A stretch of DNA of 7,294 nt, from positions 1 through 7,294 of IMG/VR virus record IMGVR_UViG_3300000059_000050, one strand, 5' to 3'. Position 1 is the stretch's first letter; every line of letters begins with the position of its first letter. Source of the DNA: a virus (Duplodnaviria; Heunggongvirae; Uroviricota; Caudoviricetes). The notes beneath the pieces are model-generated. The model had not been told where the DNA came from, did not search any database, and was given only the letters and a program-made list of their open reading frames with translations. Made by a program: the position numbers and the translations under genes. Positions 547-5,032 of this stretch are shown piece after piece.

Positions 547-1032
547 TTAGTTTTGCTGTTCTATTTTAAGCTTGATAGTTTCATACAAAACAATAGTTGC
601 GCCTGTTTTACATAATTCCCGGCTGTCATACGCGCGAGACCAATAACACAACCAGTTCTCGAGATCTTCTCGAGTATAGGTTTTGCAGGCCAGTCCCTTT
701 GCCATTTCCACGATTTCATCGCCTGGTGCTGTTAACTCATAGCCATTCAACAACAAGAAGACGTAACCAGCCATCATAGCTGTTCGTTTGTTCGCATTAG
801 CAAACGGATGATTCTGAATCAGACTTTCAATCAATACCGATGCCAGTACAAACATGTCATTAGTCTGTTCATACCATCGAACCATGCTGGGACGGGCCTG
901 AGAAGAACTTAAGTTATCTGGACTCAGGACACCAACGGGCTCATCTGGCGTCTGTAATTCAATTAGGGAACGATTGATTTCAACAAGATCATCAACCGTA
1001 AGGTAATGCACTCCTTCAACAATCTCAGCCAT
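547..1032 (-). CDS. Doc-family (death-on-curing, Fic/Doc fold) type II toxin, about 161 aa
   Basis: Translation contains HPFANANKRTA, matching the Doc signature H-x-F-x-(D/N)-A-N-K-R (P1 Doc has HIFNDANKRTA). Start taken at ATG 1030-1032 (MAEIVEGVHYL...); the track ORF begins at a TTG at 1041. Lies 18 nt downstream of a small ORF, the usual antitoxin-toxin layout. Confidence 0.8.
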   Translation of the reverse strand: MAEIVEGVHYLTVDDLVEINRSLIELQTPDEPVGVLSPDNLSSSQARPSMVRWYEQTNDMFVLASVLIESLIQNHPFANANKRTAMMAGYVFLLLNGYELTAPGDEIVEMAKGLACKTYTREDLENWLCYWSRAYDSRELCKTGATIVLYETIKLKIEQQN

Positions 1033-1050
1033 AGAGCACAATACCCATCA

Positions 1051-1230
1051 TTACACTTTTGAAAGTTCTTCCATGGCTTTCTCATAACGAGAAAAACCGA
1101 AATCAAAAGCATTTTTCACTTGTTCACGATGTGCGCAGTTTTCATCAATCGCTGGGCGAGGGACTGCCACAACGCTTTTATCGCGAGGCGGAATACTCAA
1201 CCGCGTGTGTTTTTTGATTGGGCAGCTCAT
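1051..1230 (-). CDS. Putative antitoxin partner of the Doc toxin, about 59 aa, family unassigned
   Basis: Small ORF directly upstream of the Doc gene on the same strand. ATG at 1228-1230 is preceded by AAGGA (MSCPIKKHTRLSIPPRDKSVVAVPRPAIDE...); the track ORF starts at a TTG 48 nt further upstream. I do not recognise it as Phd/YefM-like; the call rests on position and size. Confidence 0.5.
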   Translation of the reverse strand: MSCPIKKHTRLSIPPRDKSVVAVPRPAIDENCAHREQVKNAFDFGFSRYEKAMEELSKV

Positions 1231-1293
1231 ACTAATGAGTCCTTTTGTTTTCCGATTATTGGCAAAGCCATGCACCAAATTTGATACAAAATA

Positions 1294-1355: not shown

Positions 1356-1376
1356 GAAAAACCCGCCGAAGCGGGT
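1356..1376 (-). terminator. Rho-independent terminator downstream of hok
   Basis: Minus-strand RNA reads AACCCGC-UUCG-GCGGGUU followed by UUUUUCG. The 19-nt core AAAACCCGCCGAAGCGGGTT is identical to the hairpin at 511-531. Confidence 0.55.
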
Positions 1377-1447
1377 TAAGTGCGGGTGCGTTGAGGATGC
1401 CTGACACATCAGAGGTGGCGAGGGATTTCTCCCTCGCCTGGTCACTC

Positions 1448-1603
1448 TTACTTCTCAGATTCGTAGTCTACGAAGACAGCGACCTCCGTCTGGCCGGTTC
1501 GGATTCGTACCTCGCAGAGGTCTTTCCTCGTTACCAGTGCCGTCACTATGACGGTTAAACAGATGACGATCAGGGCGATTAACATCGCCTTTTGCTGCTT
1601 CAT
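1448..1603 (-). CDS. hok: Hok/Gef-family type I membrane toxin, 51 aa
   Basis: MKQQKAMLIALIVICLTVIVTALVTRKDLCEVRIRTGQTEVAVFVDYESEK is near-identical in pattern to chromosomal HokD/RelF-type Hok peptides as I recall them (TM helix, then RKxLCEVRxxxGxxEVAxF). ATG at 1601-1603 is preceded by AAGGAGAAG. The track ORF 1448..1660 is an in-frame extension from an ATG 57 nt upstream. Confidence 0.9.
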   Translation of the reverse strand: MKQQKAMLIALIVICLTVIVTALVTRKDLCEVRIRTGQTEVAVFVDYESEK

Positions 1604-2104
1604 AGCCTGCTTCTCCTTGACCTTTCGGTCCGTAAGAGGCAATCTATATGTGACGAGCATATAGGGGCCTCACTTCGATTTATAGTCGGGTGGGGCTTTT
1701 CTCTATCTGCCTTGCAGTGGCATGCCCGAGACAGATAGCCTCAAGCACCCGCAGCAATTCTAACTATCCAATACATCACTGCCAACACTTTAAACTCTCG
1801 CCCTTTAAAACAAGAACAAAATTCAACCAATCAGCATTGGACGCATACTCATATCCTAGAGAAAACGACTCTTTCTGTACTATCTACATCCATTTGATTT
1901 ATAAGCATTTGCCGCTTGCCATAGCCGCACAATGACAGTTTGCCATTTGATGTCAATAGATAAAAACGATCATTTTCAATGAGTTACATACTTGCAAGGC
2001 GTTGCACATCAGGCCCGATTGCATCAGTATCAAAAGATAACAGATGGTGCATTACTGCCACCTCGCCTTAATGTTCCAGAACTATTCAACTTGAGGAATT
2101 TTCA
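1604..2104. promoter_or_regulatory. AT-rich divergent intergenic region: expected hok leader and antisense control region, plus the promoter of the KilA-N gene
   Basis: About 500 bp with no convincing ORF and visibly lower GC than the flanks. Hok loci are known to carry long structured leaders and a short antisense RNA; here these are inferred from position, not seen. Several -35/-10-like hexamers are present but none could be assigned with confidence. Confidence 0.35.
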
Positions 2105-2878
2105 ATGACATCCTTTCAATTATCTTTGATTTCTCGTGAAATTGACGGCGAAATAATACATTTACGTGCCAAAGATGGTTACATAAACGCCACATCAATG
2201 TGTAGAACTGCGGGCAAACTGCTCTCTGATTACACTAGACTCAAAACCACTCAAGAGTTTTTTGACGAATTATCACGCGATATGGGAATTCCCATATCGG
2301 AGTTAATTCAATCATTTAAAGGTGGAAGACCTGAAAACCAAGGGACGTGGGTGCATCCTGATATCGCTATTAATCTGGCACAGTGGCTATCGCCCAAATT
2401 TGCAGTCCAAGTTTCAAGATGGGTTCGTGAATGGATGTCAGGGGAAAGAACTACAGCAGAAATGCCTGTACATTTAAAACGGTACATGGTTAATCGTGGT
2501 AGAATTCCTCACACGCACTTTTCTATTCTTAATGAACTGACATTCAACTTGGTTGCACCTCTCGAACAAGCAGGGTACACACTCCCAGAAAAAATGGTTC
2601 CTGACATTTCACAAGGAAGAGTATTTTCACAATGGTTAAGAGATAATAGAAACGTAGAACCCAAAACATTCCCTACCTATGACCATGAATATCCCGATGG
2701 TCGCGTATACCCAGCAAGGCTGTACCCAAATGAATATTTAGCAGATTTCAAAGAACATTTTAACAATATTTGGTTGCCACAATATGCCCCGAAATACTTC
2801 GCTGACCGGGACAAAAAGGCTCTCGCCTTGATTGAAAAAATTATGCTACCTAACCTCGATGGCAATGAACAGTTCTAA
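2105..2878 (+). CDS. KilA-N domain protein (APSES-type DNA-binding N-terminal domain) with an unrecognised C-terminal domain, 257 aa
   Basis: N-terminal about 110 aa (INATSMCRTAGK...GTWVHPDIAINLAQWLSPKFAVQVSRWVREW) matches the KilA-N pattern found in P1 KilA and Bro-N proteins. SD GAGGAA lies 6 nt before the ATG. It is the only well-supported plus-strand gene, is AT-rich, and is followed by a strong terminator. Confidence 0.8.
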   Translation: MTSFQLSLISREIDGEIIHLRAKDGYINATSMCRTAGKLLSDYTRLKTTQEFFDELSRDMGIPISELIQSFKGGRPENQGTWVHPDIAINLAQWLSPKFAVQVSRWVREWMSGERTTAEMPVHLKRYMVNRGRIPHTHFSILNELTFNLVAPLEQAGYTLPEKMVPDISQGRVFSQWLRDNRNVEPKTFPTYDHEYPDGRVYPARLYPNEYLADFKEHFNNIWLPQYAPKYFADRDKKALALIEKIMLPNLDGNEQF

Positions 2879-2883
2879 ATGAT

Positions 2884-2911
2884 TAGCCAGCCCCATAGGG
2901 GCTGGCTATTT
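2884..2911 (+). terminator. Rho-independent terminator of the KilA-N gene
   Basis: Perfect 11-bp inverted repeat TAGCCAGCCCC-ata-GGGGCTGGCTA (2884-2908) followed by TTT, 6 nt after the stop codon. Confidence 0.7.
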
Positions 2912-2918
2912 AGTATAG

Positions 2919-3002
2919 TCATCCCCATCGGCAAATCGAATACACAACCAGCGCCACCGCCATCGCAATTCCTGCCGTTGTGAATGCTTCAGGCCAGGTC
3001 AT
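2919..3002 (-). CDS. Possible 27-aa hydrophobic micro-peptide (MTWPEAFTTAGIAMAVALVVYSICRWG)
   Basis: Not in the ORF track (below its size cutoff). Its ATG overlaps the TGA of the upstream 191-aa gene as ATGA. One predicted TM-like segment. Ends 8 nt from the 2884-2908 hairpin. Could be chance. Confidence 0.25.
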   Translation of the reverse strand: MTWPEAFTTAGIAMAVALVVYSICRWG

Positions 3003-3574
3003 CGTAAAATATCCTCCGCGCTTATCAGTCCGTTTCGCTTCAGGTAGACCATCGCCTTCTCCGGTAATTTGCAGTTCGGCTTCGCTTTCCTCAATTGGCT
3101 AGCCAGTTGTTTAATCAGCATTGTTAATTCCCGTACCTGAACGTCCCCTTTGGTATCCTCATTGGTGAGGATACCATCGCCTTTCCCCTGAAGCATGGCG
3201 GCGCAGCAGGCGTTCCATGAGATTTCCTGAAGGGAGCGACGAATCTGTGTGCTGCATATACTCCTCCCTGACTCCTGGCTGTTAAACCATGTTTCAAATT
3301 CCGGCACTACCGTCGCTGGCGGGGCGGTGTAAAGTGGAACAACTCGCCCTCCCCATTGCTTAACACTACTCTCAGCGAACACTAAATGCTCAGCCCGATA
3401 ATACCCGGGGGCATCAATATCTTTTCTTTCGCTATCCCACATGTAAACCACCGGCTCTGCTTCCAGCGATGCCAAAGCAATCCGTGCCACTTCCATTTGT
3501 TCGCTACGAGTAAGCCCGTTTTCAAGCGGATTTTTAATGAACAATTCAATACGTTCTTTGGTGATAGCGTTCAT
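2999..3574 (-). CDS. Prophage early-region protein of unknown function, 191 aa; paralog of the 3578-4000 product
   Basis: AAGGAA lies 6 nt before the ATG. Shares RIALASLEAEPV and V(V/I)PLY-x-x-PPA motifs and a similar C-terminal helix with the adjacent 140-aa protein, with an inserted segment of about 60 aa. Confidence 0.7.
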   Translation of the reverse strand: MNAITKERIELFIKNPLENGLTRSEQMEVARIALASLEAEPVVYMWDSERKDIDAPGYYRAEHLVFAESSVKQWGGRVVPLYTAPPATVVPEFETWFNSQESGRSICSTQIRRSLQEISWNACCAAMLQGKGDGILTNEDTKGDVQVRELTMLIKQLASQLRKAKPNCKLPEKAMVYLKRNGLISAEDILR

Positions 3575-3577
3575 GTG

Positions 3578-4000
3578 TCATTCCTTAACCTGCAACTGCT
3601 TCTTAACCAGTTTACGTAGATGTGCCACAGCCATAGAAAGAGTTTCCACCGCTCGTTTATCCAGCTGTGGGGACAGAGACACCAGTTCGTTTATTGCGAT
3701 CTCAATGCCCTGTGCCTGCACTGTGGGAGCTGGCGGCACACGATACAGCGGAATTACACGACGCGGGTCTGCGTATTTATCTGGAGGACAAGGTAATAAA
3801 TAACCTAAACCAATTTGCTCAACATCTCGCAGTTCCTCGTCATCAGTCCATGCAACTGGTTCTGCTTCCAGCGATGCCAGCGCGATACGAAACACATTGG
3901 CAAGCAGGCTGCTTGAAGATTGGTTATCGTGCGCCGGGTCGCTCAGGAAACCAGTGATGAATGATTTAATTTCCGCGTTTTCTCTGGTAGTAGTGGTCAT
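3578..4000 (-). CDS. Prophage early-region protein of unknown function, 140 aa; paralog of the 2999-3574 product
   Basis: Start ATG overlaps the stop of the upstream gene (ATGA). Motifs RIALASLEAEPVAW and RVIPLYRVPPAPTV. Confidence 0.7.
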   Translation of the reverse strand: MTTTTRENAEIKSFITGFLSDPAHDNQSSSSLLANVFRIALASLEAEPVAWTDDEELRDVEQIGLGYLLPCPPDKYADPRRVIPLYRVPPAPTVQAQGIEIAINELVSLSPQLDKRAVETLSMAVAHLRKLVKKQLQVKE

Positions 4001-4206
4001 TTGTTAATCCTCAAAACTTTATGCCCGGGCGCAAAAGCACGTGTTTTGTCTTTACTTATTCGCCACCCGTCTTTACGGGCCTCTTTTGCACAACCAGACC
4101 ATGACGTACCGATATACTCACCGAAGTCTGGCACTGGATATACACCTTCCGTACACTGGCGGCAGTCACAATAGAGATGCATGGTGTAACTTGCGGCAAT
4201 AGCCAT
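3997..4206 (-). CDS. Small Cys-rich protein (C-x-C-x2-C ... C), putative zinc-binding, 69 aa; tandem paralog copy 1
   Basis: AAGGAGA lies 5 nt before the ATG. Near-identical to the 4817-5032 product (MxIAASYTMHLYCDCRQCT...GEYIGTSW.GCAKEARKDGWRIS.DKTRAFAPGHK). Four conserved Cys. Confidence 0.75.
   Translation of the reverse strand: MAIAASYTMHLYCDCRQCTEGVYPVPDFGEYIGTSWSGCAKEARKDGWRISKDKTRAFAPGHKVLRINK
4011..4206. repeat. Diverged direct repeat, copy 1 (about 196 bp; roughly 85-90% identical to 4837-5032 by eye)
   Basis: Aligned by eye without gaps to 4837-5032. Covers almost the whole Cys-rich gene; similarity continues into the upstream SD region. Confidence 0.8.
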
Positions 4207-4816: not shown

Positions 4817-5032
4817 TCACTCTCCTTTGTTGCTTCTCAAAATTTTATGCCCTGGCGCAAAAGCACGCGTTTTGTCGACGCTTATTCGCCACCCATCTTT
4901 ACGTGCCTCTTTTGCACAGCCAGCCCATGACGTACCGATATACTCACCAAAATCTGGCGACTGATATTTGCCATCCGTACACTGGCGGCAATCACAATAG
5001 AGATGCATGGTGTAACTTGCGGCAATACTCAT
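4817..5032 (-). CDS. Small Cys-rich protein, putative zinc-binding, 71 aa; tandem paralog copy 2
   Basis: GGAGG lies 4 nt before the ATG, which directly follows the TGA of the 119-aa gene. Same four-Cys pattern as the 3997-4206 product. Confidence 0.75.
   Translation of the reverse strand: MSIAASYTMHLYCDCRQCTDGKYQSPDFGEYIGTSWAGCAKEARKDGWRISVDKTRAFAPGHKILRSNKGE
4837..5032. repeat. Diverged direct repeat, copy 2
   Basis: Partner of 4011-4206, same orientation, 826 bp apart. Confidence 0.8.

What the first reader, a model, noticed from the sequence alone, without database searches (positions are those of the whole stretch)
1690..2911. Oppositely oriented AT-rich KilA-N gene with an unrecognised C-terminal half: candidate defence or exclusion moron
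This is the only plus-strand gene in a minus-strand operon. Its GC content is visibly lower than the flanks, and it has its own promoter region and a perfect 11-bp terminator. That is the signature of a horizontally acquired, independently expressed moron. The N-terminal half is a KilA-N DNA-binding domain; the C-terminal half (about residues 120-257, rich in Tyr/Pro/Asn, ...YDHEYPDGRVYPARLYPNEYLADFKEHFNNIWLPQYAPKYF...) matches nothing I recognise. It sits between two toxin modules (hok and Doc). Single-gene morons at this position in prophages are frequent homes of superinfection-exclusion or abortive-infection functions.
Basis: partly seen in the sequence, partly recalled or inferred. Interest (0 to 1): 0.7.

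Follow-up and report, generated by a model that had tools for sequence, protein, structure and literature searches.

The report
BstA-type phage-defence gene cassette
The gene is an untested variant of BstA, a known prophage protein that aborts infection by rival phages; here it sits on a 1.15-kb cassette inserted backwards into the prophage's early operon, so the "unrecognised" half is a named domain and the find is useful but not new in kind.

Summary
The real gene is window 2105-2878 (+), 257 aa. The finding's start at 1690 is wrong, because 1601-1750 is the sok RNA of the neighbouring hok/sok module. The N-terminal half is a true KilA-N/APSES DNA-binding domain. The "unrecognised" C-terminal half is BstA_C (Pfam PF26567), the C-terminal domain of the abortive-infection protein BstA of Salmonella prophage BTP1 (Owen et al. 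2021). Only the C-domains are homologous; the N-domain does not align with BstA's. BstA_C is a modular domain fused in different proteins to KilA-N, Bro-N, Rha, AntA or ORF6N domains. In E. coli lambda-like prophages, an 87%-identical relative sits directly after a 99%-identical cI repressor, in exact gene-for-gene exchange with a canonical BstA. In the window, the gene instead lies on a discrete 1.15-kb cassette (about 1772-2918: 333-bp arm, gene, terminator). The cassette is missing from otherwise homologous "empty" sites and is present in 2.5% of complete E. coli genomes. The defence-moron reading is therefore supported by homology, position and insertion/deletion evidence. It is a new, untested variant of a known family, not a new kind of system. 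No promoter and no aba self-immunity element could be identified. Interest is moderate to low.

The parts
1772..2918 (+). The whole 1.15-kb cassette (upstream arm, gene and terminator), present or absent as a unit
   Evidence: Three E. coli prophages with hok/sok and the downstream DUF551-type gene end share window 1358-~1771 and 2919/2921-3002. Only about 20-30 bp of unrelated filler lies between these segments. GC is 0.405 against 0.481 for the rest of the window.
1772..2104 (+). 333-bp non-coding upstream arm, the presumed promoter/regulatory region
   Evidence: It occurs only together with this gene and is not a relic of cI. GC is 0.39. It carries 12-16 SNPs against the commoner allele, compared with 1.3% divergence in the CDS. 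No consensus sigma-70 promoter was found and no LexA box.
2093..2097 (+). Shine-Dalgarno GAGGA, 8 nt upstream of the ATG
   Evidence: Read directly from the sequence.
2105..2878 (+). CDS of 257 aa, a KilA-N::BstA_C protein
   Evidence: ORF. PHROG 6287 'BstA abortive infection system' matches over the full length at 3e-89. There are 2,651 homologs, the listed ones all carrying PF04383 + PF26567. The AF2 model has pLDDT 91.4.
2144..2440 (+). KilA-N / APSES DNA-binding domain (residues 14-112)
2474..2818 (+). BstA_C domain (residues ~124-238)
2884..2908 (+). Intrinsic-terminator-like hairpin (11-bp stem, 3-nt loop) followed by TTTAGTAT
   Evidence: The T-run is short, so termination efficiency is unknown.

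Best explanation
The gene encodes a BstA-family, single-protein abortive-infection defence. It is carried on a mobile 1.15-kb cassette that has landed, in antisense orientation, in the nin region of a Rac/lambda-like E. coli prophage next to hok/sok.

Proposed working model:
1. The protein is made in the lysogen from a promoter inside the 333-bp arm. This is inferred from the gene's antisense position and its own terminator.
2. Its KilA-N/APSES domain binds DNA. This is inferred from the fold.
3. When a foreign phage replicates, the protein acts at the replicating phage DNA. Through the BstA_C domain it blocks phage DNA replication, so the infected cell dies without releasing progeny. This has been shown only for canonical BstA proteins and is transferred here by C-domain homology and positional equivalence.
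4. The host prophage escapes its own protein either through a cognate aba-like DNA element somewhere in the cassette, or because early-right-operon transcription runs head-on through the gene after induction and silences it. Both are speculative.
For: Homology:
- PHROG 6287 (BstA) matches over the full length at 3e-89.
- PADLOC BstA matches residues 119-238 at 6e-21.
- BLASTP to BTP1 BstA gives 32% identity, E 4e-16.
- Profile-profile comparison gives probability 98%, E 2.7e-13 over 110 columns, with shared VPDISxG and H-x-YPD motifs.
- The same Pfam family, PF26567 BstA_C, is assigned to this family and to all 120 listed canonical BstA relatives.

Recombinant bridge: P0122 combines a BTP1-type N-domain (3e-30) with a C-domain 65% identical to the window's.

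Position:
- The closest diverged relatives lie directly downstream of the cI/S24 repressor, the hallmark bstA position. These are PhiR5_2 at 87% aa, the 77%-nt E. coli allele, and the metagenomic P0007/P0008.
- L011 and L005 differ from L096 by an exact swap. L096 carries a canonical BstA listed in Owen Table S1.
- The cI proteins are 99% identical.
- DNA homology ends at the cI stop codon and resumes 9-13 bp after each gene's stop.

Cargo status:
- Empty sites exist, and the gene is present in 137 of 5,426 genomes.
- In other phyla the neighbours are transposases, resolvases, AbiTii, a restriction enzyme and Schlafen/AlbA_2.
- One relative lies in a P2-like prophage, between a DUF4145 gene and the tail gene gpD.

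Selection: the family is 52-87% identical over its full length across phyla, with about 50 invariant residues.

What is known about BstA itself is taken from PMC8585504.
Against: - No member of the KilA-N::BstA_C architecture has been tested. All three tested BstAs (BTP1, Kp, Ec) have the other N-domain.
- The N-domains do not align, even profile to profile. Identity to the Ec-length BstA homolog of Owen's Table S1 (L096) is only 23% in the C-domain.
- The window copy is not in the repressor operon, and no promoter could be found, so expression in the lysogen is unproven.
- No BTP1-style direct repeat straddles the start codon.
- The biochemical activity of BstA_C is unknown, and it has no relative of known fold.
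- The N-domains that partner with BstA_C (KilA-N, Bro-N, Rha, AntA) are also typical of antirepressors and regulators.
Confidence: 0.65

Rival explanations
1. It is a phage regulator or antirepressor. The KilA-N domain binds operator-like DNA or a repressor, and the protein modulates the lysis-lysogeny decision or induction of this or another prophage rather than defending against phages.
For: - KilA-N, Bro-N, Rha and AntA, the N-domains found fused to BstA_C, are classic antirepressor/regulator modules.
- PHROG 129 'transcriptional regulator' also matches the N-domain.
- The nin region is a common home of antirepressor genes (general knowledge).
Against: - There is no ANT/KilA-C or Bro-C domain.
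- The C-domain is the BstA one.
- Close relatives sit in the lysogenic cI operon, where an antirepressor would be self-defeating.
- The gene is an exact positional alternative to a canonical BstA.
- It is antisense to the lytic operon.
Confidence: 0.12
2. It protects against superinfection or serves the prophage in some way other than abortive infection. For example, it could bind incoming or host DNA to exclude phages without cell death, or act in prophage maintenance together with the adjacent hok/sok stability module.
For: - In 112 of the 137 genomes that carry the gene, one match covers at least 80% of window 1400-3100, that is hok/sok plus the gene.
- The mechanism of BstA_C is unknown.
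- The very high cross-phylum conservation suggests a conserved cellular or DNA target.
Against: - hok/sok occurs in more than 4,700 genomes without the cassette, and the cassette junction is clean, so the two are separate modules.
- Relatives elsewhere have no hok neighbour.
Confidence: 0.15
3. It is a silent passenger. The cassette landed antisense in the operon without a working promoter, and the gene is not expressed.
For: - No consensus promoter was found in the arm.
- The arm diverges faster than the CDS.
Against: - The ORF is intact and about 98.7% identical in the roughly 117 genomes that carry this allele.
- It has a good Shine-Dalgarno sequence and a conserved terminator.
- The arm always travels with the gene.
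Confidence: 0.06

Closest known systems
BstA of Salmonella prophage BTP1 and its tested homologs BstA-Ec and BstA-Kp (Owen et al. 2021, PMC8585504)
   Same: - The C-terminal domain is homologous (Pfam BstA_C; hhalign probability 98%).
- Both are two-domain proteins with an N-terminal putative DNA-binding domain.
- Both are single-gene prophage cargo.
- Close relatives occupy the same slot directly after cI and are exact positional alternatives to a canonical BstA.
   Different: - The N-domain is a canonical Pfam KilA-N that does not align with the BTP1-type N-domain.
- The protein is about 50 aa shorter.
- C-domain identity is only 23-32%.
- The window copy lies in the nin region, antisense, with its own terminator and a 333-bp arm instead of sharing the repressor promoter.
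- No aba-like terminal direct repeats lie at the start codon.
- No member of this architecture has been tested.
P1 KilA / phage antirepressors (KilA-N or Bro-N plus a KilA-C/ANT C-domain)
   Same: The N-terminal domain family is the same. Both are small phage-encoded two-domain proteins found in accessory regions.
   Different: The C-domain is BstA_C, not ANT/KilA-C. There was no Pfam hit to those families even at E <= 10.
Lambda RexAB (abortive infection encoded between cI and N)
   Same: Relatives of this gene occupy the same cI-N slot in lambda-type immunity regions, with a cI 99% identical between the two swap partners. The role is presumed to be that of a lysogen-expressed abortive-infection system.
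   Different: The proteins are unrelated, and this is a one-gene system. The window copy has left that slot.

Membership tests
BstA abortive-infection family | C-terminal BstA_C domain (Pfam PF26567) | tested here: met
   - PF26567 is assigned to all listed homologs, and the 100%-identical cluster representative is P0001. The domain name was seen.
- PADLOC BstA matches at 6e-21.
- BLASTP to BTP1 BstA gives 4e-16.
- hhalign gives probability 98%.
- Canonical BstAs carry the same family.
BstA abortive-infection family | N-terminal KilA-N(-like) putative DNA-binding domain, giving a two-domain architecture | tested here: met
   - Pfam KilA-N, E 4e-27.
- The AF2 model has a low-confidence linker at about residues 112-121 and pTM 0.62, against 0.80 for the C-domain alone.
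BstA abortive-infection family | N-domain homologous to that of BstA-BTP1 | tested here: not met
   - BLASTP shows no N-terminal similarity.
- The PADLOC BstA model aligns only residues 119-238.
- hhalign of 51-sequence and 40-sequence profiles aligns only the C-domains.
BstA abortive-infection family | Encoded on a prophage, typically directly downstream of the repressor gene | tested here: inconclusive
   - The prophage requirement is met.
- The repressor-adjacent position is not met in the window, where the gene lies in the nin region, antisense.
- That position is met in the closest diverged relatives, including an exact swap with a canonical BstA.
- Only 3 of 70 diverse loci have an S24 repressor upstream.
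BstA abortive-infection family | Cognate aba self-immunity DNA element at the locus (in BTP1: 63 bp spanning the start codon, with terminal direct repeats) | tested here: inconclusive
   - The control scan recovers BTP1's CCCGCCA repeats at -28/+28. The window has no direct repeat of 6 nt or more straddling the ATG.
- The repeats in the arm are at chance level, and one of them is broken by a SNP in the commoner allele.
- aba sequences of other homologs are not published, so absence cannot be concluded.
BstA abortive-infection family | Abortive-infection phenotype with a block of phage DNA replication | not testable with these tools
   This needs plaque, survival and phage DNA replication assays.
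KilA / antirepressor proteins | C-terminal ANT / KilA-C (or Bro-C) domain | tested here: not met
   Pfam scans of the whole protein and of residues 119-257 at E <= 10 give no such family.
Phage moron (independently transcribed accessory cassette) | Discrete insertion that is absent from otherwise homologous genomes | tested here: met
   Empty sites L013-L015 have junctions at about 1772 and 2918. The gene is present in 137 of 5,426 genomes.
Phage moron (independently transcribed accessory cassette) | Own promoter and own terminator | tested here: inconclusive
   The terminator hairpin is confirmed and conserved. No recognisable sigma-70 promoter was found.
Phage moron (independently transcribed accessory cassette) | Base composition that deviates from the flanks | tested here: met
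   GC is 0.405 against 0.481, and GC3 is 0.35. Some other small genes in the window are equally AT-rich.

The most novel reading that the evidence does not exclude
KilA-N::BstA_C proteins may form a distinct and unusually conserved branch of BstA-type immunity: single-gene, and spread across phyla. In this branch BstA_C would be a universal effector module steered by interchangeable DNA-binding heads. In the nin-antisense configuration seen here, the prophage would protect itself not with an aba DNA element but by head-on early-operon transcription that shuts the gene off on induction.
Probability: 0.12. Interest if true: 0.6.

Novelty: new variant of a known kind. Interest (0 to 1): 0.35.

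Why it matters
- RefSeq labels this gene only as "KilA-N domain-containing protein".
- An E. coli pan-genome defence survey found bstA only in 10 prophages at one hotspot (PMC10121019). If the protein is active, BstA-type defence is several times commoner in E. coli than reported: 137 of 5,426 complete genomes carry this subfamily alone.
- Its reach would extend far beyond Proteobacteria.
- BstA's mechanism is still unknown. The modular pairing of BstA_C with at least five different DNA-binding heads, and the natural recombinant P0122, give ready-made domain-swap material for asking which half senses phage DNA and which half blocks replication.
- The relocated, antisense copy offers a natural test of how self-immunity is achieved away from the repressor operon.

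Tried and rejected
- aba search. I scanned -80..+90 around the start codon for direct repeats of 6 nt or more, with BTP1 as a positive control. Nothing turned up in the window, and only chance-level hits in relatives.
- Direct repeats in the arm (CCATTTGAT x2 spaced 53 bp, TTGCCAT x2, TCAAWAGATAA x2). I rejected these as candidates. The expected number of such pairs is close to the number observed, and copy 1 of the 9-mer carries a SNP in L002, L003 and L006.
- Promoter. The standard scan and a lenient scan found nothing usable on the + strand.
- LexA box. None in the cassette.
- The arm as a relic of a cI-linked locus. There is no tblastn or blastn similarity to cI genes or to anything outside this cassette.
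- BFVD gave only KilA-N single-domain matches. The AFDB library was unavailable.
- NCBIfam has no model for either protein.
- The local Pfam copy lacks PF26567, so neither the window protein nor BTP1 BstA hit it there. The assignment rests on the precomputed annotations.
- Owen Table S1 was checked for this subfamily. The RefSeq protein accessions of this subfamily are not listed, and whether any listed homolog has this architecture could not be decided.

Full report
**What is there**

The window's only convincing + strand gene is an ATG ORF at 2105-2878 (257 aa), with a GAGGA ribosome-binding site 8 nt upstream. The finding's left coordinate, 1690, comes from a spurious GTG ORF. Positions 1601-1750 on the minus strand are the sok antitoxin RNA of the neighbouring hok/sok module (Rfam RF01794, 104.8 bits against a gathering score of 59). 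The hok promoter-like site lies at 1785-1757 on the minus strand.

- The terminator is real. It has an 11-bp perfect stem and a 3-nt loop at 2884-2908. Its dG is -23.6 kcal/mol, z = -4.9, and no shuffle out of 200 folds as well. The commoner allele keeps the hairpin through a G.U pair and a slightly larger loop.
- GC is 0.405 for the cassette against 0.481 for the rest of the window, but a few other small genes in the window are equally AT-rich.
- The gene is not "between hok and Doc". The order is Doc (547-1041; Pfam Fic/DOC), hok (Pfam HOK_GEF) with sok, this gene, then DUF551-type genes.

**What the protein is**

Every listed homolog in the 5.8-billion-protein collection carries PF04383 plus PF26567, and PF26567 is called BstA_C.
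- PHROG 6287, "BstA abortive infection system, replication inhibitor", matches the protein over its whole length (3e-89).
- The PADLOC BstA model matches residues 119-238 (6e-21).
- BLASTP against BstA of prophage BTP1 gives 32% identity over residues 133-251 (E 4e-16).
- All 120 listed canonical BstA relatives carry PF26567 and nothing else.
- A profile-profile comparison of the two families aligns 110 C-domain columns (probability 98%, E 2.7e-13), with shared VPDISxG and H-x-YPD motifs.

The N-domains do not align in any of these tests. The protein therefore shares BstA's C-domain but has a different DNA-binding head, or at least one diverged beyond recognition.

**BstA_C is a modular domain**

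A search with residues 119-257 alone against 1.84 billion representative proteins found 412 clusters. Most are proteins of 240-290 aa with the domain at the C-terminus. Among 85 of them, the N-terminal domain was KilA-N in 27, Bro-N in 20, Rha in 15, AntA in 13 and ORF6N in 2.

One protein, P0122, joins a BTP1-type N-domain (E 3e-30) to a C-domain that is 65% identical to the window's. That is far closer than BTP1's own C-domain. The two halves therefore recombine in nature.

**Genomic context**

Annotated relatives show that the window is the nin region of a Rac/lambda-like prophage. The minus-strand genes belong to the early-right operon, running from the replication genes towards Q and lysis, and this gene is the only one pointing the other way.

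The gene is accessory. It occurs in 137 of 5,426 complete E. coli genomes, about 117 with this allele and 20 with an allele 77% identical in DNA. The adjacent hok/sok, by contrast, occurs in more than 4,700 genomes.

Three prophages provide empty sites. They share window 1358-~1771 and 2919/2921-3002, with only 20-30 bp of unrelated filler between. This defines a 1.15-kb cassette, about 1772-2918, made of a 333-bp non-coding arm, the gene and the terminator. The arm is found nowhere except with this gene, and it is not a remnant of a cI locus.

**Link to BstA by position**

BstA's hallmark is its place directly after the prophage repressor gene (PMC8585504). The closest diverged relatives of the window protein sit exactly there. 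These are phage PhiR5_2 (87% aa), the 77% allele in E. coli G1/2, and two metagenomic lambdoid contigs.

More pointedly, E. coli G1/2 and E. coli O178:H19 2012C-4431 have cI proteins that are 99% identical. The first is followed by the KilA-N::BstA_C gene. The second is followed by a canonical BstA listed in Owen's Table S1. DNA homology between the two loci stops at the cI stop codon and resumes 9-13 bp after the stop of each gene. The two genes are thus exact positional alternatives in the slot that holds rexAB in phage lambda.

Outside Enterobacterales the family is very widespread. There are 365 relatives among GTDB species representatives, still 52-60% identical in Bacteroides, Verrucomicrobiota, Planctomycetota and candidate-phyla genomes. 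Their upstream neighbours are mostly transposases, resolvases, integrases and defence-type genes, and only 3 of 70 are S24 repressors. One relative lies in a P2-like prophage, between a DUF4145 gene and the tail gene gpD.

**How it most likely works**

From the published work:
- Canonical BstA is made constitutively in lysogens.
- It gathers at replicating foreign phage DNA and stops phage DNA replication. The infected cell dies without releasing progeny.
- The prophage's own lytic growth is spared by aba, a 63-bp DNA element that spans the bstA start codon and carries terminal direct repeats.

By C-domain homology, the recombinant P0122 and the exact positional swap, I infer the same role for this protein, with the KilA-N domain as the DNA-binding part.

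Not shown:
- That the window copy is expressed. No sigma-70-like promoter was found in the arm, and no LexA box.
- That this architecture defends at all. Only canonical BstAs have been tested.
- How self-immunity works. A scan that recovers BTP1's CCCGCCA repeats finds nothing comparable at the window's start codon. The short repeats in the arm are at chance level and not conserved.

Because the gene faces the early-right operon head-on, transcription after induction could silence it. This is speculation and needs strand-specific RNA data.

**Rivals**

- An antirepressor or regulator role is suggested by the kinds of N-domain involved. It is contradicted by the absence of an ANT/KilA-C domain, by the cI-operon position of close relatives, and by the swap with BstA.
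- A role in superinfection exclusion or prophage maintenance other than abortive infection cannot be excluded, because the activity of BstA_C is unknown.
- A silent passenger is unlikely. The ORF is intact and about 98.7% identical across about 117 genomes, and the terminator is conserved.

**Novelty and verdict**

The family, its domain and its PHROG label already exist, so this is not a new kind of system, and the "unrecognised domain" claim falls. It is an untested variant, with a different N-domain, a shorter protein, a different and antisense location, and no recognisable aba. RefSeq names it only "KilA-N domain-containing protein". A pan-genome survey that found bstA at a single hotspot in 10 prophages probably missed it (PMC10121019).

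The defence-moron interpretation is supported as far as sequence analysis can go. The finding is of moderate to low interest, mainly as an annotation gain and as material for working out how BstA functions.

Noticed in passing
window 1757-1785 (minus strand): The hok promoter-like site TTGGCA-17-TAGAAT straddles the cassette's left junction. The -10 lies in DNA shared with empty sites, and the -35 is supplied by cassette DNA. The insertion may therefore have altered hok mRNA transcription.
   Followed up: partly
window 547-1278 (minus strand): A Doc/Fic-family toxin ORF (547-1041) is preceded by a small ORF (1051-1278) that could be its antitoxin. RefSeq relatives annotate the toxin as a type II death-on-curing family toxin.
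   Followed up: partly
window 3997-4206 and 4817-5032 (minus strand): Two paralogous Cys-rich small ORFs (69 and 71 aa) are roughly 85% identical by eye. The one scanned (3997-4206) has no Pfam hit. This is a duplicated nin-region gene of unknown function.
   Followed up: no
window 2999-3574 and 3578-4000 (minus strand): Two tandem ORFs share the motif ALASLEAEPV, and relatives are annotated as DUF551. They look like a tandem duplication with diverged ends.
   Followed up: no
window 1356-1437 (minus strand): There is a sub-threshold Rfam match to the IsrK Hfq-binding sRNA (27 bits against a gathering score of 50, E 0.009) just downstream of hok. It is probably chance.
   Followed up: no
proteins P0146, P0191, P0215: BstA_C also occurs inside giant predicted proteins of 1,230-1,770 aa. 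P0146 also has a window-type KilA-N domain. These could be real multidomain proteins or gene-call fusions.
   Followed up: no
protein P0122: This is a natural recombinant. It joins a BTP1-type BstA N-domain to a C-domain 65% identical to the window's.
   Followed up: partly
L011 4936-5738 vs L096 2323-3328: There is an exact gene-for-gene replacement of canonical BstA by KilA-N::BstA_C directly after 99%-identical lambda-type cI genes.
   Followed up: yes
loci L016-L095: The family keeps 52-60% full-length identity across distant phyla (a Bacteroides isolate; Verrucomicrobiota, Planctomycetota, Gracilibacteria and Spirochaetia MAGs). This is unusually high for a defence gene. In several Stenotrophomonas genomes the upstream ORF looked by eye like the chromosomal gene aceK; this was not confirmed with Pfam.
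   Followed up: partly
L004 7239-7892; L011 1-207: DUF4145-domain genes lie near BstA_C genes in two unrelated prophage types (a P2-like Sedimenticola prophage and a lambda-like E. coli prophage). This could be a co-travelling defence-type gene.
   Followed up: no
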